Under the pieces are notes generated by a model that saw only the letters and a program-made list of their open reading frames with translations, did no database searches and had not been told where the DNA came from. From contig OX442314.1 in the NCBI GenBank assembly GCA_949358305.1, positions 18,476,001-18,540,000 of the forward strand: 64,000 nucleotides of DNA. The letters run 5' to 3'. The position numbers were made by a program, and so were the translations under genes. This document shows positions 1,529-37,786 of this stretch, piece after piece. Each line of letters opens with the position of its first letter. The stretch's first letter is position 1. This DNA comes from Strigamia acuminata. Lineage: Eukaryota.

Positions 1529-4500
1529 AACCCTGACATTGTACTTGTACATTACCTCAATGTACCGTACAGCGATGACAATAAACTGGTTATTGCACCT
1601 AGCCTCAGTTTCTGTGGGGACAAGAAAGAGTGGACCAAAGAAGAACTTATTTCTCAACTTAAACCAATGTGTAAGTAAAAGATAAGTACTCAGTAGACAG
1701 TTTAGCACTTTAATATCTAGTGATTTCTTTAGTTTTCAGTGAAAATGAACCTGATCTCAACAACGAACTGGAAATATCGGTAAAGTTTGTACTATATTGT
1801 GTATTGCGTGTTTCGAATTGTACATGTAACGAGTTTGTGTAGACGGCGGAAACTGTAGAGGCAATCGTACAGCAATTGATGGAGAAGCAGCGCGTCCGCA
1901 ACCAGGTGAAAACGCACGAATGTCCTTGCGACAACCAGGGTGCTAAAAACAGCATACAGTGCGACAGCAAAAAGTGCAATCACACGTTGCATCGGATCAT
2001 CTCACCCAAGACCGGCGAAGCTGGTGCGGTGGGCCAACACCAGCATCATCATCCGTCAACGGCAGCAAGTGCCACGGGGCCCACGACGACGCACCGAGTC
2101 GCACCGCGCAAGACAGCGGCAACGTTTTCTACCATCACTGCCGGTTCGAAACCGTGTCGATCGACGATTACTGTCGACACGACGACGACGACGACACGAG
2201 TTTCGCCGTCGCAGGCTTCTGCGCCTCCTGCTTTAACAACTCCCAAATCGACAGACTCGCCTACGACTCCCTCGACACCTGCAGCAGCCGGTTCAGTGCC
2301 CCCTGCCTCGGCGGCTCCTCTCATACTCAACTTGTCACAACTGCAGGGCGGGGGCGGACTCCTCATTCTCAACAGCTCGCCCACGCCTGCGTCCCTCACT
2401 CCGCTCACCCTCGCCTCCTTCGTGTGCAACCAAGGGGCCGTATCGGCCACTCATGTTACGTCCACGGCACGCGGGGGTAGTGCTGATGGAGGAACCGGGG
2501 CGGACGTTGAGTTGGTCAGTTCGTCTGTGGACGGGTCGTTGAAAAGGGAAAGTGACGACGAGTCCAAGTTGGAGCGAACGACGGCGATGGACTCGAGCAC
2601 GTACGAGAGCATGTTGACATCGGACGATAACAAATTAGATAGGACTCTGCTTAGCGCATCGAATCGTACAAATTCTCCTCCGTACGGTGATGAGATGAAG
2701 ACGAAAACAGAAACCATCCATTTGTTCGACAACGAGACGCTCGATTTGTCGCAGGAAGACATCCAGAAGACGCTCTCGGCCAATTTGCCCACCTGTTCGA
2801 CCGGGCGTCTCGGCGGGCATAAAGTAAGCCTAACCTTGTCATTTAAGTTAAAATTAAATTTCTCCAATTTATTCGAATAGGTAAATGAATCCCATCACCA
2901 GCAACATCACAATCATCATCACAACCAATACGAGATGGATGCGACGGATCTGAATCCGATGGATTTCATCGACAATGACGTTTCCACACCTGACGAAGAC
3001 GTGTTTGTCAATCTAGATGCGTTCGACATGCTCACCGATTTCAGCGACTTGGATCCAGTGAATCCTGAGCTTTCGGCCGCATCTTCGGCTCTTTCGTGCT
3101 CTGCGGGCGCCTCTTCGGTGGGCTCGTCCGGAGGGGGCAGCAAGGCCGCCTCATCCCACAACGGGAGTACGTCGCGAATGGACTACCGCGAAGGGACGGC
3201 TAATATTACCGACTTCTCACCGGATTGGTCCTATCCGGAGGGTGGAGTCAAGGTCCTCGTTACAGGACCATGGTACTCTTCTTCCTCGCCTTACAATATT
3301 TTATTCGACGGGGTTGCCATGCCCACTACGCTGGTGCAGAGCGGGGTTCTTCGATGTTTCTGCCCAGGTACATTCGACTGCGCAGTCGTACAAACTTGAC
3401 ATTTTATTTTCATTGTGTTTTCAATAGCTCATGAAGCTGGTTTGGTGACGCTGCAGGTGGCATGCGAAGGGTTTGTCATTTCGAATTCTGTGATATTTGA
3501 GTATAAAACGAGGGAAAAATCACTCTCGGATAAAGCAGACGTTTGGCTCGTTGTTGACGGTGATTAAACTCAAAAGTTTAATTTATTTCATTTCATTTTA
3601 TTTTATTTTATTTTATTTTATTTTATTTTATTTTAGAAAACTTGTTCAAGTTCACATTAATGGAACGATTGGAGCAAATCGAGAGCAAATTATCGTCGTC
3701 GGATGGGAAGAAACAAAAAGATGTGGGTGACACTGGACATGGTCGGCAGCGTTCTTTCGAGGAGCGTCTTGTCGATCTGTGCCAACAAATGGCATCAAGA
3801 CCATGGGTAAAAACGGAGGATACGAGCTTGACGTCTTGCGACGACCGTGGACTCACCTTGCTCCATCTAGCAGCTGCATTGGGCTACATGCGTTTGGTTT
3901 GTGCCCTTCTTCACTGGCGAACAGACTGTCCTTCCCTGCTTCTAGAGTCTGAAGTGGACGCGCTGAGTCGTGATCATAACAACTGCACACCTCTAGTAAT
4001 TCTTGTTACGAATTAAAAGTGAATTTTTGTCTAATCATTTTTGTTTGATTTTCTATCAGATGTGGGCATGCGCATTCGGTCACAAAGACGTAGCGCTTTT
4101 GCTGTATCAGTGGAATCAAACAGCGCTGAACGTGCGAGATGGAGAAGGACGTAACCCTCTAGATGTGGCTCGGTTGCGAGGACACAACGAACTAACACAG
4201 GAAATCGAAGTGCTTGAACAGACTCGGTTTAAAGAAAACAACGACTCCGCCTTACAAACGCCAACCGATGAATTTGTCGTCGGTACTACTTCAGTATCCG
4301 ACCACAGGTAGAAATTGAAAAATTGAAAAATTGAAAAATTGAAAAAAAGAAGAAGAAACTAAACAATTGTTTCTTTTATTTCTCCAGTCCTTCACCAAAT
4401 GAGATGCTCAATTCTCGATTGGTCAAGAGGTCATCGTTTCTGAGCGGGGGTCTCGACCCAACTTTGTCGGATGCTTGCACAAGACCGACCTTATCAAAAA

Positions 4501-6216
4501 TGTCGAAACGAGACCGGGCCTATTCTTTACCCTTGGGTTCAATGCCGTCCGTGGCGTCTATTCTAAGTGCCAGTCACATATTGGGCATTAAGGAAGAGCC
4601 CATTTCGTCTCCGTTGATGTTAATGGACACAGGTGAGAGGAGGAGAAGGAGTAAAAGGAGATGAAATTGTAATTGATTTTGTAATTGTAATTGATAGATG
4701 ATGATGTGGACGTACACAAACAGAGCTTTTCCGGCGTTTCGGGCGGGGGCTTCCTTGGACGCCGGGGAAGTTTTGGCGCTTGCGATCTTGGCGGCTCAGC
4801 GGGCGAGCAGGATTCGCGCGTGCTCACGTTAGCAGAGCAGATTATAGCGGCATTACCAGATCGAATCAAAGTGCCGGCGAGCGAGGCAGAGGAGACGATG
4901 GACGACGTGCAGAAAGACTTGGTGACAAGCACGAGTTCCGATCACGGCCACGAGGACTCGGTAGAAATGAACATTGAAGATTCGTCGTCTTCGCTTGTGC
5001 GGGCGGCGGATGCAGTTTTTGACTTTGAGTTCAGCGATCACACATACCGGTACTGTGACGTGGGAACGCCAGCGTCTTCGTTGAGTCCCACGTCATCCTC
5101 GTGTCTGCAGAGCCCTTGCAGTTTCACTCTCGACTCGCCGTCGCCACCGCCCACCACTGCCGATTTTTGCGAATTCTTTCAAGCTTCTGGAAAAATTATG
5201 GAGCGCGACTTCTCCAATCTTACTCTCTCTGGTATTTTGGCTTTTTACTTCGAGGGAAAAAAACGATGTCTGCGTAATCGAATGTGTTATGTGGTTGCAG
5301 ACAAAGAGCAGCGAGAGTTATACGAGGCAGCTAAAGTCATTCAAAAGGCTTACCGCCATTACAAAGGTCGAAAACGCCAGGAGCAGGACAAAGAACGTGC
5401 GGCCGCCATCATCATACAGAATTACTACCGTCGATATAAACAGGTTCTGCCTTTTTCTTCTACATCATTCCATATCGAATACACTTCGAACCATTATATT
5501 TACTCTTTTCAGTATGCGTACTTCAAACAAATGACTAGAGCTGCTTTAGTGATTCAAAGCCAGTTTCGCAATTATTGCGAGCACAAAAAGAGGTTTAAGA
5601 GGAGTCAGGAAGCCGCTGTTTGCATCCAGAACTACTATCGCAGCTACAAAGAACAACAAGAACGACTGCGACAGAGCCGGGAATCAACCCCGACTAGTTC
5701 AGGACTCAAGTAATTACAATCTTATCAGCAATTTTCATTTCGCTCAAACGTTTTCGATATTTTTAGACGCACCTATTCGCAGAGACGGCAACATCAGGCA
5801 GCTCGTAAAATTCAGCAATTTATGAGGCAGTCTAAGAATAAGTGAGTGATTTTTGTTGCTTTTTAAAAAGCTCTTTATCTAGGTTAAGTTGTAATAACTC
5901 TGTTGGTCTAATTGGATTTTTCTCCTCAATTTTAACGCTAACTTAGCGTGTGGGATTATTTGGATGGGAAAGCGGTGAGTCAGCTTGCGCTTGTCTTTTT
6001 TACTTGCCATTTTTCATTTTTGGTTCGCTTTTTTTCCCCTTTCCTTTCCTTTCCTTTCCTTTCCTTTGCATTGTTTTGTCGTTAGTGTGTTTTCGTTTGT
6101 GGTTTCAAGTTAACGAAACGCTCGATTTTTATAGATTACAGAAAGAGCGTGCTTTGGCTGCCGGAAACGAGACCCTAAGTCATCGGTCACGTCGGGACAG
6201 TCACCAGCCACCATAA
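1529..6216 (+). CDS. CAMTA: Calmodulin-binding transcription activator (5'-partial, multi-exon)
   Basis: The exon starting at 1529 reads [12 protein letters not shown], the end of the CG-1 DNA-binding domain. Also present: IPT/TIG domain ([23 protein letters not shown]...GVLRCFCP), ankyrin repeats ([24 protein letters not shown]) and IQ motifs ([44 protein letters not shown]). Introns are GT-AG. The 5' CG-1 exons lie upstream of the window. Confidence 0.97.
3590..3634. repeat. (TTTTA)n microsatellite in a CAMTA intron
   Basis: Direct tandem TTTTA units. Confidence 0.85.
5947..5974 (+). other. Putative 28-nt alternative microexon of CAMTA
   Basis: gctaacttag|CGTGTGGGATTATTTGGATGGGAAAGCG|gtgagt. 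Inclusion keeps an open frame through the last exon to TGA at 6252-6254. Confidence 0.65.
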
Positions 6217-9410: not shown

Positions 9411-12400
9411 TTAATATTTTCTACTATCATCATCATCAGATTTAATAGTTTTTGATTTAATATCGGGTTCATCATTGCCACTTGCATCTACGTCGAAACT
9501 TCCAATTGTCCTAGACCTAGACGATGCCGACGAAAGCAGCGATGTTTTACTCTGTTTATCAACCTCATTTGTTTCCTCAAATGTAGGCTCTACAAGCGTT
9601 ATTTCACTTTCACTTTCGTCAACTATCGTCATTGCATCTACTACATCAAAAGTCGTATTTGACTTCAGGTTACGGCTGCTAGTTATTGATGCGGCGTATG
9701 GTGCATTGAAGGTGGAGTCAGACTTTTTATATCTGCCACTAGTTCGTGTAACTCTCGTTTCAAAAAGGGACATATTAGGAGTAGCTGGCAATTCACCAGA
9801 AAACCCTTTTTTACCCATTAACCAATAGGTGGAAATTGTACCTATAGACTGAAGAAAAAACATTTTAGTCATTGCCAATATGCAAAAAGTCACTGAACTG
9901 GAATTTCCAATTCCTTTCTGAACATCAAATAATATAAACCGGTTTCATGTAGTAATGCTGCAGTTGTTTCGGATACTTGCACCGCGTAAGCTGAAATATC
10001 GATTTTATTTTTGTTTTTATTTTTGAATTTAAGTTTTAAATTAGAAAATTCTACGTTCTCCTTGAGATTCCATATGCTGCGCAATTGTAACGTCTTCACC
10101 AATTATGCAGTAGTAAGGCATTTTTAAACCAATGACTCCAGTAACGCACGAACCTGCATCAAAGTAAAAGGCTGTTAGTCTTATTGATGCTTAGTGTTTC
10201 ATTTATTTTAGTTTATTTATTTATTTTATTTATTTTGCCAGAGTGAATGCCAATTCGAATTTGAAGTCGTTTATATGGGATGTGTCTTATTGGGAAACAA
10301 GTAACCGCAGATAAAATGTGCAATGCCATTGTAGCAATGTCCTCGTGATGAAATCGATTTGCTGTAGGAATTCCGCCAACAACGCAGTCTAGAACAACAA
10401 AAGAGTGTTTGAAAATTATTAATATTATTATTATTATTATATTATTATTATATTATTTGTTATTAATTATTATACTATATTATTTAACAAGAAATCGCAA
10501 TTTCTAAAACGAGATTCGCAGTTTGATTGAATGTTTCGATCGGGTTTCGATGCAGGTCAAGCCAAGGTAGATGTTTTTTTTCTTCTTTTCTTTCTTTCTT
10601 TCTTTTATGTATCGTACATCGATTTGGTTACTTCATCCCGGGATCATTAGGTTTAATTCAGTACCGGTAGTGTTTATTAAAAAAATAAACTTGCAGCGCC
10701 CGACATATGGTTAGCGATGCCAAATGCATTTAGTGCGCATGTTAATACATAACATGGAATACGCAATTAGTACAATTTATTTTCCAAGATAAGGGAAATG
10801 AATAAGCTTTGATGATAAAACATCGGCACCAATGGCGGTCGTTATTTAAAAAGTGCAGGCAGGATGGCGGGGCGGGGACGGGATTATGCAGCTTATTTTA
10901 GTGAAACGAAAACTTACATACATCTCCAATAGTTTCCACCTTGAAAACACGAAATCTTTCGATAATATTATCAAAACATATGTATAAATCATTGAGTAAT
11001 TCAATAGTTTGCTCGGGTGTGCTCTCCTTTGCAATGTTTGTAAAACCGACAATGTTGCTACAATTTCATACAAAAGAAAGTTTTAACATTATTGGAAAAA
11101 TTGTACCATATATACCATAAACATCACCTATAAAATATAGTTACTTCACTATGCCATTCAGATATTGCATCATTACCCTGCTTAATGTTTTGAGCTACTG
11201 ACGGTGGCAAAATTCGCGAAATTAGTTCTTCGGTTTTACTTTTTTCTGATTGGATCTGAATGGCTTTTTCATTCAGGATATCTTGCAAGTGGTACGAATA
11301 TTTTTCCAACTACAAATCATACCATCAGTGTATCAACAAAATTAGATAACATTTCCTTGTGTAATTAGTTAATAATCGTTTGACCCTCGGTTTGCTCACT
11401 GAAGATGGTAGTTTTGATTTATTGTTTATTGTAGCGCCATTAATTTCATTAAAAGCACTTTATTATAGAGTTATCAGTTATTAGTTAAACTCACCATGTA
11501 AATGAGATTCTCAATTAGTTCTCCTTTTAAGGGGTGAATGACATTCAACTTTGCAGCTATTTCGCTAAAACTAGGTCGGTTTATTGGCTTTTCGGATGTG
11601 GTTTCTGATATAAGCTTGAAAAAAAATTTTAAACATTAAAATTCCATTCAAACTATCCAAAATCCAATCGTACTTTCATCACTCCCTTCTTTTCGGCAAA
11701 ATTATCAGGCATTTTAGGATTTTTTAAAGCGGGACGGATTGGACGTTTTGTGTCATAATCATGTGCTTCAAGAAGCTTCAAAGCAACTTTACAATCTATA
11801 TACATACAGCATAAATCAATTGTATTATTTACCCTTTTTATTTTTATGTTTTCAATATCTTCATGATCTCTCAGAAGTCTTAATAGCTCGTCTATTGATA
11901 AAATTTGTAGCTCGTGGAAGTAAGCAGATTTGTGAGTACAGATTTCAGTGAGAATGATGCCAAAAGAGAATACATCACTAAGTTTAGTTCCATTGTTTAA
12001 GTCATTAGGAGATGTGCAAACTCGCAACAACTCTGGAGATGTCCACAGCATGTATCTAAAAATGGACAAACCATCTTCAGTTTTTAACCAAGAAGAAAAA
12101 GTAGGCTACATTTACCTCTTCGTTTCTTCTACATAAACTTTAGAATTAATTTTTCGTATTCTTTGAATACCAAATCCTGTTAAAAATAATATTAAGTTCT
12201 CAATAGTCGGCTGACTATAACTTAGTCTGTGCCCGCTTGACGTCAAATTCAAACACTAAATTCCATTTTATGCGCACGAAAACACAAAAGAATAATACCA
12301 TTACCTGTTATTATTTCTAAAAATCACGCATTTGTGCGCAGTCAGGGATTTGTCAGTTTGATTTTGGAATCAAGAGTCCGGGCGCGAGACAGTTGTAGTT

Positions 12401-15400
12401 AAGCTCACCCGCTATTTTGCACAACCATTTGTTATCTATGAGACAATTTGAAGATTTTAAACGACCGTGAGACACAAGCTTAGTACTGTGTAGATATTCC
12501 ATTCCACTCGCAATGTCTCTCAAGATGGAAAACTTAAACGGCCATGTTAAATTGAAAACTTCATTCGCTAGAATTTTATCCAAACTTTCCTGAGTTGCAT
12601 GAAAAATATTACTGATTTTATATAACGAGGGAAGTGAAGGGTTCTTATTAGGCATACTTTAGGCATAATCTCCACAAGAATAGCTACGTTTGGAGCGTCG
12701 GGACAAATGCCATAAAAGCGGATCAAATTATCGTGTCTTATAGATTTGAGTAATATTATTTCGTCCCTAATTTCTGGTGAATTTATATTCAACGAATCTC
12801 TATCAAGTTTCTTTGCATATAAATCTTTTCCTTTCCAGACTATTGCGTTTTCAATATATGAAATTATGCTCGGAATGGTTCCACCACGACTTGAGTGCGG
12901 TGTGTCGATTTTTGGGGTTCGAACAACGTATGGCAGTGCAGTTAATGAAGGGCGATTGGAGAGTCCTAATTGGGTTGTTGGCGTAGGCACATCGGTTGGT
13001 GGCATCTTTTCTATAACATCTTTCCAGTTTACAAGCCAGTCAGAATTCCGCAGTTGTTCTCGTCTGATTCGCCTGCAGTCGATACAATTGCACATTAGTC
13101 GAAGGGTCAGCACGTGTCGAACGATAGAATCTAGGACAATTGAAAAGTTAACAGTGGTTTGGCGCCGCAAATATCGTGCGAAAATCAATGCGGAACAGGA
13201 AATGAGGGTGGCTGTATCCAATTAAATTCCAAAATTTGAAAAAATGTGTAGTGATAGCGAGCAATAAGCTCATCTGTCTCACCAATTAAGACAAGCATTA
13301 AATTATTTGTGATTATTGTAATAATTGCGTTAAATATTTTTGAAACGAACCACCGAGTTAACAAGTTAATCGTCCTAGGTAGAATAATCGCCCGATTTTT
13401 AAAAAATCTTATTGTTTTTATAGAATCACTTACATTCTCATATTGCATTTGTAAAAGTTAAAAATAATGGTGATCGCACCCACAATGCAAATCACAATAG
13501 CAATTATAAGAACTCCAGTCATGACCTGACAACTTTCGCCATGGTAGCCGACATAACATTTGCAGTAGTTAGGATGCACACATTCTCCATTTAAGCAGCT
13601 TACACTAAATTATAATTATAAATTAAATTAAGTTATTCTACAATAAATTATACACTTAATTATGGATACTTACGAACATATTGCAATAGCGCAAAACGGT
13701 CCAGACCAACCTTGGTGACAAATACAATTGAATGGTGATTTACACACTCCGTTTTGACAACTTTCACAGATAGCTGTATCGCAATTATCACCGCTGAATG
13801 CAGGTTCCATCGAGTTCTCTACTGTTTCATTGGAGAATACTTCGCCCACCCTATAACACCTGCACTCATTAGGACGCACACAAACACCATTCTTGTATAT
13901 ATGAGCACTTGTAGAGTCTATTCTTCCACCTCCACATCCATTATCGCAGAAAAAAGCTGGTAAAATCATATCAGTTCGGAGACTAAGCTGGCTCAGATTT
14001 TCAGTATATTTTTCGGCTGTCAGAGTTAAGGTTATGAATTTCATATGTCCGCGTGTGGACAAATAGCTGAGTAATTAAAAATAGGCTTAGTAATGTTTTT
14101 AAAATGTGTGAATCGGACTTACAATCTGGGGATAAGTCGAGTTTCGTTAGGTATTCGTAATGGAACATATGGCATGGAGAACGTTTTCATTTCGGCGCTA
14201 GAACTTCCAAGTGGTATTTCGATGATTCGCTCTAAAGTTCCTGAATTGTCCAATTGGACATCTCTCTTTTTCTTTTTGGCGTTTTTAACTATGTTTCCAA
14301 CAAGGTAATCATTTACACTAAACAATCGTGCTATTTTATCAATCTAAAAGTAAGATATTGGTGTCAAATTATTCCAGTTAAAGCTGTACTATGTACACAC
14401 ATACAAACAATGGAGGTTTCTTAACATTTCTTAGGTTTATTACATTTACTACGCCAACAAGTGTACCCCCCCTCCATTTTCCGTTTGGGAATTCTATTTT
14501 ACCAGTTAAGCCTTCAAAACTGATCTAAAAGTAAGGTAATGATTTATTTATCGTAAATCCCGTACTTCAATAGAACAACTTACTTCTTGTATCGTTTTCA
14601 CAGTTGATTCAAGGGTAATAGTTTCATTTTTTCGAATCAGCTCGTCTAAAGCGATGGCATAACACAGAACTACGTCATACCCCAAACCAATTTCTCCAGA
14701 AAGCTAAAATAATAATTTAAATAATAAAAATTTTAGGAGTATTTTGAATTTTGTTTCGTATTTCTTGGCAATATCTAGCATATTCTGAATAAACCCTATA
14801 CTATTATTATAGATTTTCGAACTTTGAAAGAGCGTTTAGCAATCGGTATTCCATTGTACTCGGCAGAATTCATTTCGTAGAAACGACGATTGATGTGGTA
14901 CCACAGATCGGAAGAGTAACCTGATACGTTGTGCACTCCTTGAAATATCAACATTCCTTCAAATGCTTCAGAACAAGTAGGTGTCTTTAAAGAAAGAGAG
15001 AGAAATAAATTGCCTTTGATGCTTATGTGCTTCAGAAACAAACGTGCAAAACATCAAAGCCGTGCTAGAATCATCAAAAACCTGTTGACAATATTCATGG
15101 TTGTCCTTCCAATCGAATTCTTCTTCCCCCAACCATTGGTAGCCGTGCATAGGAGCAAATTTATTACTGAAATTTGATCAGATATGCTCGGTCAATTACA
15201 TCACTGATTTATCTACTCATTTTTATCTACTTAATTGCTTGTCTGAACAGCCAATACTGCTTAGGGGGGTACACATGACTGTAAACTATTTTTGCTCCAG
15301 TTTTCTTTGCGTTTTCTATTTCTGTTGATAAGTCAACAAGATCGTCTACATGAATCTGGATATGGTAATCAATATTAATTAATTAATTATGGAAAAGAAA

Positions 15401-18323
15401 GTACCGAGTGTGCTACCGTGTAAGCATTGACAAAGCCATAAACAAGCAGTGAAGCTGCGAATCCGTAATCGACAGGTAAATCTGCATCTTCAATATTAAT
15501 CTACAAAAAAAAATATTATTTCAATTATTTGCTGATTTTTATGTATTAAAAAAAAATACTATGTAAGTCCACTGACGGTCAACCAAGAAATGACCTAAGA
15601 AAATAGAATATTGCAGCTCATTCCAAGTTAGAGCAAACAGTCCTGCTCCTGGATAGAACTCCTACGTTTGGGGAAAGAAAATAAAAGTTGCTGATCCTGT
15701 TTTGGCATGTATAAAACTCAAAGACTGACTGAACGAATAAAGGATTGCCATATTTCTTTATACGTTAAAATGGGCATATTAATGTCGGAAAGTTGAGGTA
15801 ACATTGCATCAGTTATCACATTATCACCGAATCCGATTATAGCTCTTGTTGTTTCGTGCGATTCACTCTGACAATACCCATGGTAATTAATATTTCTATA
15901 TAACCAGAAAAGGAATTTTAAAAACTTACTGCATTGATTGTTTCCAACATTTCATTGAATAACCTTGCAACATGTGCAATATCGAGTTCAGTGTCGTACA
16001 CCTTTAGTTTAATCGTGTGATCTTCAATGTATAAAGCTATTAATTTTAAAAAAATTACCGGTAAGTGAAACTATTTACTTACTTGAATTTTTAAGAAATT
16101 CAAACTTATTTTTGAATATTGGATCATTATTTGTCACATCGTTTATTGCAAACTGTGCAAATGTCGCTGATACCGCTTCAGAATCAATTTCGTGTCCCGC
16201 TGTATTAAAACGTCCGAACAAGCCGATATTTATGTCCCCTAAAAATATTAATTTATTGAGTAATAGTGAAGAAAGTAATGTTTTACGTGAGAAATTTACC
16301 TACACTCGTGTACGGTCTCGAAAGTTGTGACTCTAGAGTATTAATTCGCCTGAAACCCAAATCAGCTGTAAACTGGAATCGCACATTCGCTCCAGTCTCG
16401 AGAATGGCACCCGTGAATTTTCCGATTCCTCTGAATGTTTTCAATCTTCTATCAGAAATATTTATTGGCGGTACTGTTGTAACTGAAATTGGCTGAAGAG
16501 ACAACAAAGTTTGTGTTCATGATAAATGGTTTAATTTGTATAGACTAAAAATACTAACTAATGCCGAATCCAAACCAGAGAAAATTCGTCTATTGTTTTC
16601 GTCTAGTATCATTATCCATAAATTTGGTATGGCAAAGTGGGTGGAAACGGAAATTAAGGTGTCATTACTTCCACCTGTCATCTCGTTTTTACCTTCAATA
16701 TTATTAATCACTATTAATCTGGAAGCTAATTGTCCTGGTTTAATAAAAATCACATTGATCACTTGATTTAATTAAAATAATAATAATATGCTGATATATT
16801 TACGTGTTACAGTTATAGGTGCACTCAACTTGACAGATTGCAATGCATTGTTTGAGCAGTTCCTATTCAAGCTGTAAAGTTCCGCAATAAATGTTTGTAT
16901 TGGATAGCTTGAAAGACACACAGTATCTGAAGGGTCGCAGAATTGTACGAAGTTATATTGACCGGTACTATGATAATTTACGCAGGAGGAGACAAACTCT
17001 AGATAATCCATCGGTACTCGCGTCCCTGATCGAGGCATTAACAATGTTGCATTGAATAATACACTTCCATGTTTTTTGTTGGTAAAATAAATTTCTTGAA
17101 TGATTACATTATCAAATTGAACTAAGCCATTTACGGCTCGTTTGTGAAGAACTCGATCATAATTTCTGTAAGACGTGATCACTTCATCCCCTGCCAGTAC
17201 AACCTGCAATAATAAAAGAAGAAAATCGAAGAGATTTTTTGTATTTTGTTTAATAATTACTCATACTGAGGTATTGTAGACAAAATCTTGAACCAGAGCT
17301 TCTCGGGTGAACATCTTATCGTGATAAGACACTGTCACTTGCACAATGAGTGTAGAATCTAGACCATTGGTAATTCTTTGGGTTTGGTTGTTTGCATCAA
17401 CAATTTCCAATGATATAGAAAATGGGTTGTTAGCGGCGATTGAAAGCTCAGAACTTGGCTCAATCCATCTTAATTGGGCTGATCCTAAAGAGATGCCAAT
17501 GCTTCATGTTGCTGGCTGAATAATATCCTCAAGATTAATTCACATTTTAAACACTTACGCAAGTGAATTTTAAAGGGGTGTGTGAACGTGCTTATTTTTT
17601 CGAGTGGAGTGAGTTTGATGGTAAATTTGAGTCTTCGTAATAAGTATCCACTCTCTTCGGTTACTACATCGTGAGAAATTCCTTGTGCAATCAACTGATT
17701 GCCTTGTATTTGTATAGAAAGAGGCGTCGATTCAGAAGAACCATCTTTATTCTCGGTGCAGGTTGTTCTTAAAAATGAAATATTATACGATTCCATATTA
17801 ACTGAAATTTAGGATTTAATGAGCGTTACTACTTGAAATAAGGCCCGAGTTGGCTAAATCTTCTGGGATTGCTTAAATCAAAGTCGTTTGCTGCATATTG
17901 GCACAAACTTAATTTAACATTATCTCCGCTTATTAGCTGATCGATATCCTTTTCCGTTACAACTTTTACTGGCAATGTGGTAACATAAAAAAATCTAGGA
18001 TGTGTTGACGTTGAATACATCTCGTCTGTTGGGGTAATGGGTTGGTCGTTACTTTTGCACAAATAAGCCACAATTGGTCTGCTCATTCTTTGTTTATTAG
18101 CAACTGAATAAATTATTTGCGAGTCGTCAGTCGGCTCAGTTTCCGGTGGAAAATAGTTATTAAATACTCCTTTACTTGGGAAGCAAATATTATAAGCTAA
18201 AAGAAAAATTGGGATTATTTCTAATTTACTTCCCATTCCCATCCCAATGTACTCACCTTGAACCTGGATTTTCTCAATAAGTAATTTGTACACGTACATC
18301 AGCAATAAGAACTGATAATTCAT
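9411..18323 (-). CDS. Atypical receptor-type guanylyl cyclase (probable pseudo-cyclase) with N-terminal extension, ANF-receptor domain and EGF-like repeats; many short exons
   Basis: Signal-peptide-like start [15 protein letters not shown]-receptor-like domain from ~16238 (INIGLFGRF...FAINDVTNN). EGF-like repeats ([46 protein letters not shown]). TM helix [18 protein letters not shown]. Kinase-homology domain ([32 protein letters not shown]). Hinge (MEKYSYHL...[18 protein letters not shown]). Cyclase domain ([20 protein letters not shown]). Confidence 0.93.
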
Positions 18324-18437
18324 TTTATTTAGTTAAAACTTTATTGCGTTATTTAGGGTAAATAGGTTTTGACATTTTATTGAATTGTTCAAAAGAAAAT
18401 TGTATTGTTTAGCTAAAATGGGGGATTGTGGTGAAAA

Positions 18438-20104
18438 TCACAATACTAATAGTTTACTTCGGACGATTTTTGCTGCTTGTGTCATAGTTTTAATTGTCTT
18501 TTGTTTGGTTTCTTGCGTATTCTTCTTGTGCTCATTACGATGGGCCTTATACCATTGCTCAACTGGGCAAATGTAATCATTTTCTAAGTCAACTGAGTAT
18601 GTTAAATTTGTTTCGAAATTGACATACTTTGACAGTTAGTGCAAAAATAATATTTATATATTGGCCTCTTCGCATTTCGACATCTGAACAAAATGTTAGA
18701 GCAATAAATTTTTTTGTTTTGTTTTATATATGAGAGATGGAGATTTTTACCTATTACACACTATATATTTCGTTAAAATAGTTCCATTAGTCCCACAATT
18801 GTCACAATTTTTTAATCGCCGCCTATCAACTTTGAATGGTGAAACGTCCGAATATGTGTCTGTAACACTTTTACGCGGCGAGACTGCTATCTTTAGACCA
18901 TTTTTTGTTTTTATTGTTTTTATTGTTTTTTTTTTTTAAATTAGAAGGAGATTTTTATTATTAAATTAAATCCATAATTTACCAGTTTTCCAACTTGGCT
19001 TCTCACTGTCTTCAATTTCTCATCAAATTCGCAAATCATTTTTAGCCTTTCACGCTTTCGTTTTTCAATGACTCTAGTAATTTCTCCAAGGTGTTTAATA
19101 TTCTTTGTCATTTCGCTATCTTCACTCAGTTGAAATATTTTCCCTTCTTTTTTCTCCAACATATTACGTATCCAGCTTACTTGATTACCACCGACACCTA
19201 AAAATGTTACTAGATCTTCTCGCCACCACTTAACCAGGAACCTTTCAAGAGGCCGTGCTTTAAAATTTACATCTAAATAATCGTGAGGAATGGTCCAATA
19301 ACTCAAACTTTGATCTTCCATTTTGTCTGCACTTAACCACTTATAGAACACTTCGCAGAGAGCTGCACCAAAAGATATTTCTGTAAGATTGACGGTTAAT
19401 AACCTAACCTAAACCGTGAAAAACACAAAACAACTATAACATCTGATACTTTCATATGAAATACGACGACTACTTTGTCTGTATTTGTTACGGCTGGTGC
19501 AGAAGGTTCGTCGATACTAGTCGGTAACATTTTCTCTGCAAAATCACGATTGTTAAACGTGAACACAAATGTCAGAACTTTAAGTACTTACTTGGAAGCT
19601 TGCTCATTAATCTAATGACATCTAAACAATATTGACATTTTTCGTTAGTAGTGCCTAAAATTTCGAGTTAAATTCAAATAAATGGGTTTTGGAGGATTAC
19701 TGGTAGTTATACCGTCTAGTAAATGAATGTGAATATATTTATGAGCAGTTGTCATCATTCCTGGCAATTGTTCTTGTATCTAAAAATAATAATCAGTGAA
19801 TAAGTTGTTATAATAGATATTAAAAAAAGGAAATACTCTACCCATTTTAGAAGATAACAGTCGGGATTTAAACAAAATAATAACCAAAAACGAAACCAGA
19901 AAACCAAACCCTAAAATAAAAAACAAATTTTTATTTATTTATATTATATTATTAATTTTTTAAAGAAAATTTCATTACCTGTTCGGTTATCATTTGTTTA
20001 AAGAGAGCGGATCGATTGAGAACGAAGTTAGGCCCGCAACCAAATTTCATAACGTTGTAATAAGTATTAGAGTTTTCTTGTAGATTCAAGGGAACCAATT
20101 TCAT
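18438..20104 (-). CDS. Uncharacterised protein with C-terminal MYND-like zinc finger, paralogue A
   Basis: Hand-spliced GT-AG exons: MKLVPL...FGCGPNFVLNR / GLVFWFRFWLLFCLNPDC / ...KCQYC... / ISFGAALCEVFYKWL... / CDNC..CNR / CRNAKRPIYKYYFCTNCQ / EQWYKAHRNEH...LLVL*. Intron positions match paralogue B. Confidence 0.85.
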
Positions 20105-20353
20105 TTTGATTTTGATTGCAGTTTTTGTAAGTAATAGAAGATAATAAGTCTCTCTCAAATTTCGAAAGTCGAGTTGTGGATTTCAAACAATCAGATTTTT
20201 GTTTGGTTTGTTGACGTACTCGTATTTAGCCATCAATGAACAATTGAAAAACAAACAACAATCTTCAGCATTTGAATTAAACAATTGTTTTTATTGAAAA
20301 CACATACGAATCACAACAAAAAATAGTAAATCAAGGTTTTCTGTTTTTTTTTT

Positions 20354-21959
20354 TCAGTTTAAAGGAAAGAACTTCTTTTCTTCTAGTCTTTTTGTTTTGT
20401 ACCGAAATTCCAACAACTCTTCCATTAATTCACGGTGTTCTTTTTCATGACACTTAAACCAATGTTCAACTACACAAAACAGAATTTTAAATTTAATAAA
20501 ATTAAATAATTAAAATTAAAATTAAGTACCTTCGCAATTAATTTCACAATAATATCTTGGTTGCTGCCATTTTTCATGCCTACATCTGTGAAAACAATAA
20601 TTCGTTAGAAATTTATAATCATTTTCAGATTGTTAACTCACCTTCTGCACATCAAAAACGATTTTGATTTACTTCTAGTAGATTGACAATTAGCGCATAC
20701 ACGGCGTTTATTATTCATTCTTTCTATGTCGTGCATTAAAGTATTTTGTTCATCAGACGCTAAGTGCCTGCTAATCTTCTAATAAATACAAATTTAAAAA
20801 AAAATTGCTTAGTTTCAATGTACAAGTAATTATTTTATTTTTATTTTCACCTCAAATGTTTCGCAGCACTTATTTGTATGCATTTCATCCAGTAAATGGA
20901 TCGACGTTAGCCATCTTTTCGTAGCCATTACTATAGCTTGAACAATTTGGTAGGTGTTCTCATTGTATCGGGTAGTGTTTGTTAATTCTGATTTTAAACT
21001 CTTTAGATGATCGTGTGACAAATCACTCGGCCAACGAATTCTTTCTGCTGGTTCACCAAGCAGGATAACCAGTCTCTCTTCCCACTTTTTGATAAGATAT
21101 CTCTCTAATAGCCTTGGCTCGAATTTCGAATGTAAATATTCTTTGGGGATCTTCCAAACGCACTCCCACTTCTCGTCCGTCGCTGTTGCTGTCAACCATT
21201 TATAAAATACTTCACACAAGGCAGCACCGAATGCTATTTTGACGCAACGAGAAGTCATCTCGACCAAGGAAGGATGCTGTAAAGGAATGAAAATTAATTA
21301 ATTGTAATTGAAAGGTTTTAGAATGCTTTACTAGTGGTTTATAAATATTACTATCCTCTTCTGCTGACAACGGTAACACATCATCTAAAATTTATATTTT
21401 TTTTGTAATTTCATCTCTTGAGCTTTATGTAGTATTTAAATTCATTTTACCTGGGTGATTAGTCATTGTCTTTATTATATTTAAGCAGTTTGTACAAGAT
21501 TCATCTGCGGGCACTAAATTAGAAAGTATTTAGTAATTTACTTGCTACAGTGTATATACCATTTGTGTTTACCCTCTAGAAATGACTTGTGGATGGCAAT
21601 GAACAAACGATGCACCAATTTTGGCGATTGTTCCTCTAGCTGATGGGCAAGAAAGTTTATTTCATTTTAAATGGAATTTTGCTTTGAATTACCGATTTCA
21701 TGTACTGGCAACCGGGTTGGAAGCAAAACGTCAGCCAAAACCGGAACCAAAATGTGGAACCCTCAAAAAGTAATATGTCATTTGATTACAAAAATAAGTT
21801 TATAATTAAAATTATCGTCGGTATTTTAGATACCTGCTCGGCAATCATGTCTCTAAACAGTATTTCTCGGTTTAATACGAAGTTAGGCCCACAGCCAAAC
21901 TTCAAGATTGCTTCGTAAGAAGTTCTGTGGTCTTTTTGAACCAGCGAGATGAATTTCAT
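20354..21959 (-). CDS. Uncharacterised protein with C-terminal MYND-like zinc finger, paralogue B
   Basis: Spliced exons: MKFISL...FGCGPNFVLNR / GSTFWFRFWLTFCFQPGC / ...SCTNC... / IAFGAALCEVFYKWL... / VCANC..MCRR / CRHEKWQQPRYYCEINCE / VEHWFKCHEKEH...FPLN*. AATAAA lies downstream at ~20290. Confidence 0.88.
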
Positions 21960-22148
21960 GATTACAGTAGTTGGAATTAAAAGTGTTTGTTTAAATTTTC
22001 TCTGTAAATTTCGGATTACTAATCAAAAATGGATACCGTATTTATACAAGTGTGTGTACTGAATGTATTTTATAACAATTGAGAGAGGTTCATGACATAC
22101 AGAGATTTTATTGGATAGTTAAATAACAAACAATTTTTGAACATTTAT

Positions 22149-23192
22149 TTATTGTTCATCTGAGAATACTTTATCAGGAGCTGTGGTGTGCTTTAATATC
22201 TTTACAAGTTCTTCCAAATCTTCTCTAAACATTTTAACCAACCATGTGTTCATCGAAAACTAAAAATATATTTTTTTTGTATACATTTTTGTATATGAAA
22301 TTGTTTAATTTTGTATGCGATACCTGTGGTATAGGCAAGTAGTGAGTATTATCTCCTATCGGTGATTTTATTACTAAAAGTAAAATAAAACACATCAAAT
22401 AATAATTTATTTTGTGTGTCTAAAGCTAAACTTTTTATGTTATTGTGATTCAAGATAAGCCTTTTTATTCGGGCATAAGTCGGGGCTTGAAAATTATTTG
22501 AACCGAAACACAATGAAAAAAAAATTGGACGAAAACAAACGACTGGTGGTCATTTAGTGGTTTTGTCCGTATCAGAAGGCTTTTACTGAATTTTTGTACC
22601 AGAGAGTCTTCTTTTTCTTTTCAATAAGCAATGAAAAAAGTGTTTTAAATAATGACGTATTGCATCTCGAGGTTCATCTAATTAAATAAGAATCATCATA
22701 AGACAAGGTTTAAATTAAAAATGTGGAATTTTAAATTACCTTGCTCAAAACACGTATGTACAGTTTTGTAAACAGGACAAATATAATTTAGATCTCTTTC
22801 ATTGGAAACCTTAAAAATATAATTTTATTTGTACATAAACTTCGGATGAGATTGATCTTACTTTATGAATGCTTTTTTGAGTGAGATTAAAACAAAATAT
22901 TAGCCAAAAACGTAACCAAAACTGCCACCCCTAAATATTAGCTCGAATTAATGGGCGAGAAGAGATGGAATAAATTGCATTTTACTTTGTGCTTGATAGG
23001 AGTGTAGGCTTTGAATTCACCATCGCTCTCGCTGGTTTTACTGCATTTACCCGATTTACTCGACCCGGTAATGCATTCTATGACCGAATCGTGTGAAACG
23101 ATTTTGTTCGCAGGAGCATCTTTTTTTAGTAGCTTTCCAAAAAGTGAATCTTTGATGAGAAGTTTCTTTTGCTTAACTTTATCGCCGATCAT
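22149..23192 (-). CDS. Divergent, shorter paralogue C of the same family, lacking the MYND finger
   Basis: Different first exon (MIGDKVKQKK...), then GWQFWLRFWLIFCFN, and a last exon WLVKMFREDL (compare FLVKWWREDL in A). Six phase-compatible exons end at TAA, followed by AATAAA. Confidence 0.65.
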
Positions 23193-24117
23193 TTGAATGT
23201 TAGGGTTAAAACTTCACTAAAAATTTAGCATTTACAACAGTAAGTAGTTTGTGAATATTGTGATAACAGCGATGACGAAATTTAATGTGTTTATAATATT
23301 AAAAGAATTGATTGTTATTTGCAATTCTTTATTGTTATGGTAAAAACCCAAAAACATCCCATGGCTGTAAAATTGACATCTTTTGATTCGATTGGAAAAT
23401 GTACCCAAGTTAAAAAGTTTTGCTCACAAGGGAGTTTATTCATGCACAAAAATGAATGTCTGATGCCATTTTTAGAATGGATATGGATTAGGGCAGTTAG
23501 GTGGGCTGCTCTGCCGTGCTACTTTTGCCTGGCAGCAGTAGACGTTGCCTAACATACTGTAAACATAAATGTTGTTTATTGCTAAGGTCGAATGAGAACT
23601 GTGTACGCTAAAATTCTCGTTCGACTTTGGTTTATTACAGCAAGAATGCTCACACTTTTGCAAGGGGTTAGCCCTTACAAAACTTTCGCCAAACTCGGTC
23701 CATTTACTTATCGGATGTGAAAAATTTCAAATACAGACTTAATAATTAAATGCAATTAAAATCAGTAACAAAATTTCCACACTGAAGACATTTTGACTGA
23801 ATTTTAAAAAAACATTCTGCCGTTAACTGATCAAAATAATTCATTAGGTAACTTATATGGATATTGTAGACTGTAGGTAAAATTCTAGTGTTTGGATCAA
23901 AATGAAACGAGTTATTTTTATAATTCACGTTACATAAATGTTGATTTTTCGCGCGTCCATTCTGGGGCACCGTACTTTTCGAACCCGCCTACGAGTACTA
24001 CAACTTGAATTAAATTATTTCAGGCTCCTTCGCCAACAAATGAATAAAAATGTTCACGTAAGTTGAATGTAGGTTCAATTATTAGTTGAAATTGCTTAAT
24101 CTTTTTTTGTAAAAAGA

Positions 24118-24179: not shown

Positions 24180-24375
24180 ATTCTAGCCTATTATTAGCAT
24201 TCTAAACTTGGCAGCACACACTAAGCAAAGTTCTAGAAAATTGGGCAGTTTTGTTGACTACACAGAGGCTTTATTTCCCTGACCTATTTCAGGTATGATG
24301 TTCCGTAAACACATAAGTCATGCTTGACAAACAAGCAGTGTAATTCTCTTATTTATCAGGACAGTGCTTCGTAAT

Positions 24376-26140
24376 ATGGAAATGGCGCATTCAAGTAGAC
24401 CTGGTAAAAAATCGCCTAAAAGGAATTGTTCGTACGGTGAATTGGAAACGAAAAAGGATGTTGAAGTGAGCATTCCTGGACTGGGAAGACTGACGGATCC
24501 TTCATATGGGAAAAAGAGCAAACTTGTATGGTTGCTAATAGTACTGTGCTGCTCTGTTGCTTGTGTTTATTTGACCGTTGATAGATTAATGCACTACCTT
24601 AGTATTCCTTTGGCCTCGAAAGTTGAAGTAAATCGAATGAACACTGTCACGTTTCCAGCGTTTACAATATGTTCTAGCAATTTACAATTGGACGGTTTCA
24701 AACAGTTGGCTAAATTAAAGACTCGTGAAGAATGCATCGCTCGAAATCGGAGTGATTGTGAATCGGAGGCGGAATATTTAGGTATCTAATTAGTTATTTT
24801 TATTTGGATTTTTTTAGCTGATTTTGTTCCCTATCTTAGTGCAATAACAAGTCTTACTGTGACTATTTACGAACCTGAAATAGACGTTGATTTAAACTTG
24901 GCTTATTATGTATGTGAATAATGATTTGTACAGTTTGATTATATAATACCCAAGTGTTATAAGTTTTAAAAAAAAAATTGTTTTTAGCTAATTCCGCATG
25001 GTGTAGCTGATGAGCACTTGATGGGATTTGAGTTTCTCATCAATGAATTTGAGCTTATTCCAGCTGGCAATCTGTTGAAAGTAAAACTACACGAGGAAAG
25101 AGTAAGAAACTATAAACAATCACGATTACCGGTACATGTTTAATAATATTTTTTTTTATATTTTGGATTTTGCACACAATAGTTTCATTTGAAGAATATT
25201 GGACAATCAAAATGTTATGAAATGAAGGAAGAAGTAGAGCGCATTAAAAAATGTGCTACCGGTACTGAATTACTTCGAGTTGAATTGTGCAGGTTAGAAA
25301 ATCTTAAGTAATTAGTGATGATAGTTGCTTAATTTTGGGCTTTTAGTCTAGTTAATATTCTCTTATTCTTAGTCCAGTCTTACATCTGGTTGATTAAAAA
25401 ATGAGAAATAAGATGTTTTGGGTTGAGGTCATTGTGTTTGAATTATAACATTTGCTACAAATTGAAAAATAGCAAATATTATTTAATTTTTGGTATAAAA
25501 TCAGCAAAACATCCTAGTTTATGGTGATTATCATTGCGTTAACAGATTATAAAAATATAAGATGGAATCGATTATACTCGTAAGCATACATAATATCGTA
25601 TTGAATTTTATCGTGTCCCAAGACAATCAGCACCTGATTAAAATGAAAGTGACAATCGTAGGCGCATGCGCACATATAGTAGATTATAATTATTTCCTGA
25701 AATCAGATTAAATTACTAATATGATTTAAAACGTGTTGAAAAATAGAATGCCTAGCTGTCCAGAGTGTACTCTCCAATGTAAGTCACTGAAGGATATCCC
25801 AGAGCCTGATGAAAGAATGTTCAATACATATTTGGCAGTACTAAAAACATTCTGTCATTCCCGGCCAATATGTATTGAATCGCAATATGCGATTTCAATT
25901 GATACCGCACGAGTTGAGAAGAAGAAGAACGATAAGAAAACAACTATAATAATTCGAATGGCTGATGATACAGTTGATACTGTTGAACAATTTATTTCTT
26001 ATACGTTTCCCAGTCTAATTAGTGACCTGTTTGCTTATTGGAGTTTCTTTTTAAGTTTATCCGCTCTTGTTTTTGCTGAAATTTTTGAATATCTTTTTAA
26101 AACACTTGCAGAATGCATTAAAAGGTGTTGTGCCAAATAA
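24376..26140 (+). CDS. Divergent DEG/ENaC (pickpocket/ASIC-like) subunit 1, internally deleted, possibly a pseudogene
   Basis: TM1 (VWLLIVLCCSVACVYL), hallmark motif VTFPAFTICS, Cys-rich thumb (CHSRPICIESQY) and TM2 region (YTFPSLISDLFAYWSFFLSLSALVFAEIFEY). Lacks ~65 aa present in the paralogue. Confidence 0.8.
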
Positions 26141-26969
26141 TATATCAAAAATAAATTCCTAAGATATTTTTAATTTCTAGTGTCCTACTTTTTTGTTTTT
26201 TTAATAAGCTTATAAATTCTGTTTTGAGAATATTTTGTGAGCATTTTATTTTTGTTTTCTAATTTATTCTCTCGACTTGTTGTAATCGCAATAAAAGATC
26301 ACCAATTAACAAACTACGTAAACTATTTTTCCAAAAGGAAAGCAATATGCTGAAGTTTAGGTTATAAATTATTTCTGGTTTGATATAAAACAGCATCAGC
26401 AAATTGACGTTGGAAAAAGCTGCACCCTGCTGCTTTCAATAATATGATACCAAGTATCAACGCACACGTACTGTATTTTGCAACTCGTAAGGGGAAAATA
26501 TGATGAACAGTTCTTAAATTAACTGAAGGTACAAATTGAAATAATAGTTATTTATGATTTAGCATTATTTTAATATGTATATTGCACCATTTAGAAAACC
26601 ATTCATTTTGTTTGATATTCAATAGGACTGAGTGTTTGACATTTTTGAGGTTTATACAAATATAAAAAGGATGCTCTTTTAATTTAAAGAAGATAACACA
26701 CATGTTATTTCCAGTATTATCAGTAAAACTATATCCGCATCCTGTAAACACTAACAGAATTTCTCGTGCTATTTGAATAGCATCTTTTTCACCACCTTCT
26801 AAAAATATAAGATATTGGAGAAGTGGCGGAAATCTTCAGACCTTGAGCTGCACGGATTGCTTGTCGTGAGCAACTCGGCTACCTATCTGCATTCAAACTT
26901 GCCTACGTAAGTGTGAGAAAACAAGATGGATTGTAATTGTGCTCTGATTAATTGTTAACTTACAGGCAA

Positions 26970-36800: not shown

Positions 36801-37786
36801 GTCCTTCTTCCATTCGACGTCGAAATGTTATTATTAATCACTGCCTCCATGTCCAAACTGAGCTGGCGCAAACCTTGTTCGTGTTGTCTTTCAACTCGCT
36901 GCACCTCGTACAACACATCGTTCATTAACCCCCTCTTGGAATCGCACGTGACTGTGTCAGCGATTGATACCGAAGAGCACGAAACACTTGCGTCGGTGCT
37001 GTTCCCACTTCCCATCGATAACGCAACGAATTCCACTTCTTCGTAATCGGATGAATCTACCTGTTGACACGAGTCGGAGTCAAGTGCCTCGTAGTCGTAT
37101 TCACTTTGCTCGATTGTCTTTTCATCAATCCGCGAGGATTCCTTTGTCTCGTCGACCTCGACCTGCGTTTTCACCTCTTCGTAGGTGGCCGACTCGAGTG
37201 CATCTCTTTGGCATTCGTCATTCGTCTCGAATTTGGCAACATTTGCCAGCTGAGAAATCTTAAAATCCTCTTCAATTTGTTCGCCTTTGCCTTTCTCGCC
37301 CACAGTCACTGCTCTTTCTCCTCCTTCACTTTCTTCGTCTTGTTGTTGTGGACTAACCTCATTCTTGTCTTGGAGGGGAGTTTCTTCTGCAATGGCGATG
37401 GGGTGTGCAGCTTGGTCCACCCTCCCTGCACCAGTTTGGCAGCCCGAGTTCGAGTTAGAGTTCGTGTTCGAGACGCAAGGTTGAACCGTACCTGCAATAA
37501 TCTCGTGTTCGGTGGCAATTACTTCGTCAAATTCGACTCCGACAACTGTATTGTGTTCGCTAGAGTCGACCGTATCATTCGATGATGATGGTGATGATGA
37601 TGACGCAAAAAACACCGGCACCGCTTCAGTCGCTGCTGTTTCATTGGTTTCGTCCGTCCCAGGTGAATGTGGCAACACCTGCTCTAGGGGTGGGCACATG
37701 TGTCCTTTTTCACCTGGTTGGATCATAATAACAAGATGGTTGAAAAGATGTTTGTTATTACGTGAGTCATTCCATCTTAAGGTCAT
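30817..37786 (-). CDS. ARHGEF10: Rho guanine nucleotide exchange factor 10-like (DH-PH plus C-terminal WD40-like propeller)
   Basis: DH domain ([59 protein letters not shown]), PH domain ([15 protein letters not shown]), propeller ([28 protein letters not shown]) and C-terminus GGRGY...YLLFWEMKL. Long acidic first coding exon; the exact start codon is uncertain. Confidence 0.95.
33209..33350. mobile_element. Short palindromic MITE in an ARHGEF10 intron
   Basis: Arms 33205-33256 and 33303-33354 are reverse complements with 2 mismatches. TATA flanks both sides, consistent with a TA target-site duplication. Confidence 0.85.

What the first reader, a model, noticed from the sequence alone, without database searches (positions are those of the whole stretch)
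10057..11170. Receptor guanylyl cyclase with a dismantled active site (pseudo-cyclase)
Seen in sequence: the spliced cyclase domain reads VTIFYS-N-IVGFT (AAC at 11054-11056) and [22 protein letters not shown]. Established: metazoan rGCs have SDIVGFT (metal-binding Asp) and MPRYCLFGDTVNTASRMES (Arg near the guanine pocket, ribose-binding Asn, transition-state Arg). Four key positions are therefore replaced (D>N, R>Y, N>T, R>H), while ETIGD, the specificity Cys and the reading frame are intact. The kinase-homology DFG-equivalent also reads GFG across the splice at ~12177/12409. Inference: a maintained but catalytically dead receptor that may signal without cGMP, or act as a dominant-negative or heterodimer partner.
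Basis: partly seen in the sequence, partly recalled or inferred. Interest (0 to 1): 0.85.

Follow-up and report, generated by a model that had tools for sequence, protein, structure and literature searches.

The report
Catalytically dead centipede receptor guanylyl cyclase
An intact, conserved cell-surface receptor gene, likely from a centipede, has lost key residues its enzyme domain needs to make the messenger cGMP; it belongs to a receptor family that appears to have split twice into complementary half-enzymes, and this copy likely acts as a non-catalytic, dampening partner subunit.

Summary
D>N, R>Y, N>T and R>H are in the sequence and in contigs of three runs from two studies. The gene model has 32 exons, 1936 aa and no stop. 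Against a second individual it shows purifying selection (intracellular core 11 synonymous / 4 non-synonymous differences), though this is not significant for the cyclase domain alone.

The reading changes. The gene belongs to a family of receptor guanylyl cyclases with an unnamed N-terminal region, an ANF-type domain and EGF repeats (molluscs, centipedes). N>T and R>H are not private decay: all 4 readable members of a five-member centipede clade lack NxxxR, and this gene's motif DVTIAQH nearly matches adenylyl cyclase C1 (DVTLANH). Strigamia and Argonauta also carry paralogues that keep NxxxR but lose two conserved glycines beside the metal ligands; the trees say this split arose twice. Only R>Y, and D>N (seen independently in one Strigamia paralogue), go beyond the clade pattern; D>N should impair even a heterodimer site.

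GFG in the kinase-homology domain is family-wide and uninformative. Expression, an odd GC splice donor, the partner in this species and all enzymology are untested.

The parts
9411..18323 (-). Whole gene model: 32 exons, 1936 aa, no internal stop; 30 GT-AG introns and 1 GC-AG; median intron 64 nt
   Evidence: collinear with Mytilus P0007 over residues 22-1813 at 30% identity
18257..18323 (-). Exon 1, probable signal peptide (weakly hydrophobic; inferred)
   Evidence: homologues start at the same place
16300..18196 (-). About 520-aa N-terminal region with no Pfam match above noise; in the Mytilus homologue predicted as tandem all-beta, Ig-like sandwiches
   Evidence: model pLDDT 67.7; Foldseek hits are generic Ig/Fn3/MG arrays, TMq at most 0.20
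14405..16238 (-). ANF-receptor-type ligand-binding domain
   Evidence: weak on single exons (E 0.08); clear in aligned homologues P0007, P0029
13520..13960 (-). EGF-like repeats (approximate ends)
   Evidence: Pfam EGF_DL_JAG E 1.4e-8, EGF_PEAR1L E 5e-5
13455..13515 (-). Transmembrane helix, about aa 1176-1194 (approximate ends)
   Evidence: hydropathy peak 3.1
11535..12840 (-). Kinase-homology domain; GFG in place of DFG across the 12409/12176 splice (family-wide)
11160..11530 (-). Coiled coil / signalling helix
   Evidence: HNOBA E 3e-4; 74% identical to Strigamia T1IL80
9805..11160 (-). Guanylyl cyclase-type domain over exons 27-32
   Evidence: PF00211 on three exons; NPR1 and GC-C best PDB sequence matches
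11054..11056 (-). First metal-binding Asp replaced by Asn (aa 1632)
   Evidence: Asp in 168 of 170 homologues
10113..10115 (-). Guanine-pocket Arg replaced by Tyr (aa 1741); seen in no other row
10074..10094 (-). C1/alpha-like motif D-V-T-I-A-Q-H replacing T-V-N-T-A-S-R (NxxxR lost)
10154..10238 (-). 85-nt intron with a GC donor of weak consensus and no GT; splicing unverified
   Evidence: protein junction matches Strigamia T1IL80
9411..9790 (-). Ser/Thr/Asp-rich tail, evolving near neutrally (1 synonymous, 5 non-synonymous, one in-frame 3-nt deletion in X3)

Best explanation
This intact gene encodes a single-pass receptor with a guanylyl-cyclase domain lacking the first metal Asp, the guanine-pocket Arg and NxxxR, so it is predicted to make no cGMP alone and likely works as a non-catalytic, dampening partner subunit. 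Shown: sequence, open frame, selection on the gene, family and clade membership, the clade-wide loss of NxxxR and the complementary paralogues in Strigamia and Argonauta. Inferred: the centipede clade became the alpha/C1-type half of a heterodimer, supplying metal ligands to a paralogue that supplies NxxxR. Inferred: D>N then removed one of the two metal ligands of the only site that could still work. The protein would still dimerise through its conserved coiled coil and cyclase fold, compete with Asp-bearing alpha-type paralogues for the partner or the ligand, and so lower or gate cGMP output.
For: Open 1936-aa model; 8 of 9 X3 indels examined are intronic and one is in frame; pN/pS 0.10 for the intracellular core (11S/4N, p=3e-5). 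Clade of window + Strigamia T1IL80, T1JDE4, T1IT78, T1JDE2 at 100/100; 4 of 4 readable members lack N and R. The motif matches AC5 C1 DVTLANHME and AC8 C1 DVDIANKLE. Strigamia T1IIM5/T1IL48 and Argonauta GAB1605938/9 keep NxxxR but lose both the P-loop Gly and the Gly before the second Asp; this double loss is in 5 of 19 family rows against 0 of 139 others, and Arg loss in 9 of 19 against 4 of 138 (rows are not independent). Single origin of alpha-like, beta-like and D>N sets rejected (AU p 0.001, 0.0004, 7e-30; groups named after seeing the tree). Precedents: NeoR lacks NxxxR, is inactive alone and donates aspartates in a heterodimer (PMC12264004); ODR-1/DAF-11 (PMC5225109); an Asp mutant of Gyc76C is dominant negative (PMC4595086).
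Against: No enzymology, no expression data, and no genome to show that this species has a beta-like or canonical partner. Selection on the cyclase domain alone is not significant (2S/1N, p=0.12), and downstream of the GC donor pN/pS is 0.72, mostly tail. The window lineage has more unique changes than T1IL80 in the cyclase domain (15-16 vs 5, p 0.03-0.04 with two outgroups; 12 vs 7, p 0.36 with Mytilus) and in the KHD (22 vs 9 with one of three outgroups), as partial relaxation would give. The beta-like paralogues keep both aspartates, so their impairment is a weaker inference. The NxxxR segment of the nearest relative T1IL80 is unreadable (broken model). I found no paper measuring a first-Asp-to-Asn change.
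Confidence: 0.5

Rival explanations
1. It is a working alpha/C1-type subunit of an obligate heterodimer: Asn at the first metal position is tolerated, giving a slower or Mn-dependent enzyme with a partner that supplies E, C, R, N and R.
For: Second Asp, IVGFT loop and gamma-phosphate Arg are intact; three Strigamia clade members keep the first Asp; D>N is isosteric and arose twice in five genes; NeoR/RGC2 are active together though each is inactive alone.
Against: First Asp kept in 168 of 170 homologues; both aspartates are described as crucial for metal binding and turnover (PMC6592433 passage).
Confidence: 0.25
2. It signals without cGMP, or acts as an adhesion, decoy or clearance receptor through its large ectodomain, with the cyclase fold kept only as a dimer scaffold.
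For: Ectodomain of about 1170 aa with ANF-type, EGF and predicted Ig-like parts; cyclase-dead NPR-A kept its effect on TRPC3/C6 (as cited in PMC4595086); both halves of the site are damaged.
Against: The complementary paralogue pattern and the C1-like motif are explained by heterodimers, not by this; ectodomain pN/pS 0.41 is not significant (4S/6N, p=0.15).
Confidence: 0.15
3. It is a recently disabled or decaying paralogue: the GC donor is a splice mutation that truncates the cyclase, and D>N and R>Y are neutral drift.
For: Weak GC donor with no GT in the intron; retention would shift the frame; pN/pS 0.72 downstream of it; faster lineage rate; the donor lies in a stretch the read tool flagged as skipped repeat, so it was not checked independently.
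Against: No stop or frameshift in 5811 coding bases; strong selection upstream (14S/10N, p=1e-4); exon 30 keeps the clade motif; 12 of 30 GT donors also lack +5G, so weak donors are usual in this gene.
Confidence: 0.07
4. A-to-I RNA editing restores Asp (AAC read as GAC) and possibly Arg (CAT read as CGT), switching activity on.
For: Both codons are one A-to-G step from the canonical residue (sequence).
Against: Best duplex partners within the gene are no better than shuffles (-23.0 vs median -20.4, min -24.2; -24.2 vs -22.0, min -28.9); Thr and Tyr cannot be edited back.
Confidence: 0.03

Closest known systems
Strigamia maritima T1IL80, T1JDE4, T1IT78, T1JDE2 (automatically named guanylate cyclases)
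   Same: Same clade (100/100), 69% identity to T1IL80 over 503 columns; NxxxR lost in all readable members; same architecture in T1JDE2
   Different: Three keep the first Asp and all keep the guanine-pocket Arg; T1JDE2 has D>N independently; none is characterised in the papers searched
C. elegans ODR-1/DAF-11 obligate heterodimer
   Same: Receptor guanylyl cyclases in which each subunit gives part of the catalytic residues to one site (PMC5225109 passage)
   Different: Different ectodomain family (recalled; not aligned here); there the heterodimer is active, here one metal ligand of the shared site is also lost
Adenylyl cyclase C1 domain, soluble GC alpha, chytrid NeoR
   Same: NxxxR absent; AC5 C1 motif identical at D, V, T, A, H, M, E; NeoR has T and K there (PMC12264004)
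   Different: AC8 C1 and NeoR (PMC12264004) keep both metal aspartates; soluble GC alpha does too (recalled); this protein is a single-pass receptor and keeps the guanine-specifying E and C
Mollusc EGF-containing receptor GCs (Mytilus XP_052083610, Gigantopelta XP_041377423)
   Same: Full-length collinear architecture, about 29% identity, same non-DFG kinase motif
   Different: All 8 catalytic positions canonical; Mytilus keeps 72 of 72 conserved cyclase positions, the window gene 53
NPR1/GC-A, GC-C, Drosophila Gyc76C
   Same: ANF-type domain, TM, KHD, coiled coil, cyclase
   Different: Active homodimers; no EGF repeats or N-terminal beta region; dead forms known from engineered mutants

Membership tests
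Receptor guanylyl cyclase (structural family) | Ectodomain, single TM, kinase-homology domain, coiled coil, class III cyclase with E/C guanine pair | tested here: met
Active homodimeric receptor guanylyl cyclase | Two metal-binding aspartates | tested here: not met
   first is Asn, second intact
Active homodimeric receptor guanylyl cyclase | NxxxR transition-state pair and guanine-pocket Arg | tested here: not met
   T, H and Y
Active homodimeric receptor guanylyl cyclase | cGMP production | not testable with these tools
   needs an assay
Alpha/C1-type half-site subunit | NxxxR absent, C1-like motif | tested here: met
Alpha/C1-type half-site subunit | Both metal aspartates, P-loop and gamma-phosphate Arg kept | tested here: not met
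   second Asp, loop and Arg kept; first Asp is Asn
Alpha/C1-type half-site subunit | A complementary partner in the same genome, co-expressed and binding | not testable with these tools
   no genome held; candidates exist in Strigamia and Argonauta
EGF-containing receptor GC family of molluscs and centipedes | N-terminal region + ANF-type domain + EGF repeats, and clade membership of KHD+cyclase | tested here: met
   (21-row clade, SH-like 99)
Pseudoenzyme (maintained, expressed, inactive) | Purifying selection on an intact frame | tested here: met
   whole gene and intracellular core significant; cyclase domain alone not
Pseudoenzyme (maintained, expressed, inactive) | Expression and measured inactivity | not testable with these tools
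   needs RNA and an assay
Pseudogene | Stops, frameshifts, neutral evolution | tested here: not met
   none in 32 exons; GC donor unverified

The most novel reading that the evidence does not exclude
An undescribed, ancient family of Ig-like/ANF/EGF receptor guanylyl cyclases split independently in centipedes and cephalopods into alpha-type and beta-type subunits, converging on the adenylyl cyclase C1 motif that lines the regulatory pseudo-site; centipedes then twice derived, by the same D>N change, a natural inhibitory pseudo-cyclase subunit, giving a combinatorial on/off receptor code.
Probability: 0.3. Interest if true: 0.75.

Novelty: new variant of a known kind. Interest (0 to 1): 0.52.

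Why it matters
Heterodimeric receptor guanylyl cyclases are documented mainly from nematode ODR-1/DAF-11, and fully dead ones mainly as engineered mutants. This family offers natural, repeated experiments: intact mollusc enzymes, complementary pairs in two lineages, and a doubly damaged member under selection. It makes two questions directly testable with a few constructs: how homodimeric class III cyclases become C1/C2-like heterodimers, and whether animals use a natural dominant-negative receptor cyclase. If the gene is only a slow heterodimer subunit or is decaying, the interest falls to a family annotation.

Tried and rejected
No whole genome is held, so paralogues in this species could not be sought; no second receptor cyclase lies in the window (tblastn). 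No RNA holder listed. Word-seeded protein searches with exon 5 and exon 21 found nothing. Atlas searches gave no hit at 0.9 or above. Foldseek named no specific fold for the N-terminal region. A possible exon at 11398-11323 was rejected: direct joining matches homologues and X3 has a 4-nt deletion there. Read-through of the 57-nt in-frame intron 11832-11776 cannot be excluded. My first model had two wrong boundaries and its variant classes were discarded; the gamma-phosphate Arg column was off by one and was corrected. The first large IQ-TREE run did not finish; FastTree was used (6 short rows dropped and 13 redundant, fragmentary or non-receptor rows excluded by name), then IQ-TREE on 28 and 19 rows. 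Three indels near 13203-13315 seen also in X1/X2 repeat contigs were left out of the indel count. A recalled idea that AC C2 has the same P-loop G>D as the beta-like paralogues was not borne out by AC8 and was dropped. GFG as evidence of decay was rejected. No complex prediction was sent: any two cyclase domains would likely pass by likeness to solved dimers. Three look-ups of earlier findings returned nothing. PMC1461427 was not held.

Full report
Observation. The minus strand at 9411-18323 holds a receptor guanylyl cyclase gene. A model of 32 exons gives 5811 coding bases, 1936 aa and no internal stop; 30 introns are GT-AG and one is GC-AG. E of ETIGD, the second Asp, the gamma-phosphate Arg and the Cys are intact. 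NPR1 and GC-C show the canonical residues at the exon-30 positions, and 168, 161, 153 and 153 of 170 homologues keep the four residues. That set is the best 150 of 41,238 hits among 50%-identity representatives plus the word-seeded hits; it is no census and favours divergent sequences. The roles of these residues are taken from passages of PMC6592433 and PMC12264004; the role of the guanine-pocket Arg and of the K-G-K-G lysine is recalled.

Not an assembly error. Contigs of X1 and X2 cover the codons with no differing letter; these runs may be the source sample. X3, from another study, differs at about 1% of places but at none of these codons in the listed rows (40 of 106 rows shown; one search gave all 20 rows for 13340-18500). 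The GC donor at 10238 lies in a stretch flagged as skipped repeat and is not independently checked.

Selection. Of 31 coding differences listed for X3, 16 are synonymous and 15 not. With simple site counts and no transition correction, pN/pS is 0.18 without the tail (15S/10N, p=4e-5), 0.10 for the intracellular core (11S/4N, p=3e-5), 0.09 for coiled coil plus cyclase (3S/1N, p=0.03), 0.41 for the ectodomain (p=0.15) and 1.4 for the tail. The cyclase domain alone gives 2S/1N (p=0.12), and everything downstream of the GC donor 2S/5N. Of 9 X3 indels examined, 8 are intronic and one is in frame. The gene is maintained; constraint on the cyclase domain itself is likely but not shown by this test. 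A relative-rate count shows more unique changes in this lineage than in T1IL80, significant with some outgroups only.

Family. The nearest protein is Strigamia maritima T1IL80 (56% over 836 columns; 69% over 503 tree columns). Its automatic model reads into introns at three of the places where I cut, which supports those boundaries. The organism is therefore likely a centipede (inference). Mytilus, Gigantopelta and Argonauta proteins align over nearly the whole length: an N-terminal region of about 500 aa without a Pfam match, an ANF-type domain, EGF repeats, TM, KHD, coiled coil and cyclase. A model of the Mytilus N-terminal region is nearly all beta strand (pLDDT 67.7) and matches only generic Ig-like arrays. 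On KHD plus cyclase these proteins form one clade of 21 rows among 154 (SH-like 99).

The pattern of loss. The window gene and four Strigamia paralogues form a clade at 100/100. All four readable members lack both N and R and have Asp before the Val; T1IL80's model breaks just after that Asp. The window motif DVTIAQHME is nearly that of AC5 C1, DVTLANHME, and like AC8 C1. C1 is the half that donates metal ligands and, with C2, forms the degenerate forskolin site (PMC12264004 passage). Two further Strigamia proteins (T1IIM5, T1IL48) keep NxxxR but read SDISDFV and ETVRDE. Argonauta has the same split: GAB1605771 lacks NxxxR, while GAB1605938 and GAB1605939 keep it and lose the same two glycines. 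The double glycine loss is in 5 of 19 family rows and 0 of 139 others; Arg loss in 9 of 19 and 4 of 138; the rows are related, so the Fisher values overstate the case. AU tests reject a single origin for the alpha-like set (p 0.001), the beta-like set (p 0.0004) and the two D>N genes (p 7e-30); groups were named after the tree was seen. One family row (P0099) has lost both sides.

Mechanism. In a class III dimer each site takes two aspartates and a phosphate Arg from one subunit and base, ribose and transition-state residues from the other. A homodimer of this protein lacks one Asp, N, R and the pocket Arg in both sites and is predicted inactive (about 0.9). In a heterodimer with an NxxxR-bearing paralogue, one site would be the non-catalytic C1-like pocket and the other would rest on this protein's Asn/Asp pair. 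I judge that site more likely crippled than working, so the best reading is a non-catalytic partner that competes with Asp-bearing alpha paralogues and lowers or gates cGMP output (0.5). Rivals: a slow but working alpha subunit (0.25), cGMP-independent or decoy function (0.15), recent decay through the GC donor (0.07), RNA editing (0.03; no duplex support). Dimer partner, expression and activity are all untested.

Comparison with what is known. Half-site receptor cyclases are known: ODR-1/DAF-11 (PMC5225109, passages). NeoR lacks NxxxR, is inactive alone and active in heterodimers (PMC12264004, passages and sections 12 and 13). An engineered Asp mutant of Gyc76C is dominant negative, and the like NPR-A mutant kept a cGMP-independent effect (PMC4595086, passages). 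A survey of guanylyl cyclase expansions has no occurrence of 'EGF' in its main text (PMC1435932, term search). Ten library searches (listings only, except the papers named) found no description of this EGF-containing family, of the centipede clade, or of a natural receptor cyclase damaged on both sides. The library lacks most subscription papers, including Morton 2004, which I did not read; supplements were not opened.

Verdict. A real feature, a new variant of a known kind. The single-gene 'dismantled site' is less surprising than first scored, because half of it is a clade-wide heterodimer signature with precedents. The repeated alpha/beta-like split, the convergence on the C1 motif and the twice-derived D>N make it a good test case. 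Interest 0.52; the boldest reading has probability 0.3 and would merit 0.75.

Noticed in passing
window 10238-10154 (-): GC-AG intron with weak consensus and no GT; 12 of the 30 GT donors in this gene also lack +5G, so short-intron donors may be relaxed in this genome.
   Followed up: partly
window 18400-23500 (-): Tandem small-exon genes with Cys-rich CxxC pieces resembling MYND-type zinc fingers by eye, with a shared short motif near 20040 and 21900; no Pfam hit for two exons tested.
   Followed up: no
window 24328-28760 (+): Two tandem DEG/ENaC-type channel genes (Pfam ASC).
   Followed up: no
window 1843-5713 (+): CAMTA-like gene (TIG and IQ matches; name is my inference).
   Followed up: no
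window 30817-37885 (-): RhoGEF with PH_19 and WD40_2 domains, ARHGEF10/17-like (name inferred).
   Followed up: no
window 41892-55672 (-): Class C GPCR, metabotropic glutamate receptor-like (ANF_receptor and 7tm_3).
   Followed up: no
window 12236-12375: High-copy short repeat inside intron 22; summed contig depth 17-25 times the flanks in three runs.
   Followed up: no
P0038 (Pigoraptor chileana), P0073 (Chromosphaera perkinsii): KHD-plus-cyclase proteins in unicellular relatives of animals; P0038 falls near the base of the EGF family in one tree but with the outgroups in another, and P0073 lacks NxxxR.
   Followed up: no
P0034, P0035, P0047 (unnamed): A third subclade of the family that keeps Asn but replaces the transition-state Arg by S, Q or K.
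   Followed up: partly
P0001, P0029 (Strigamia T1IL80, T1JDE2): Public models are mis-spliced in the cyclase domain (one breaks inside the NxxxR segment, one lacks ETIGD) and all are named active guanylate cyclases.
   Followed up: partly
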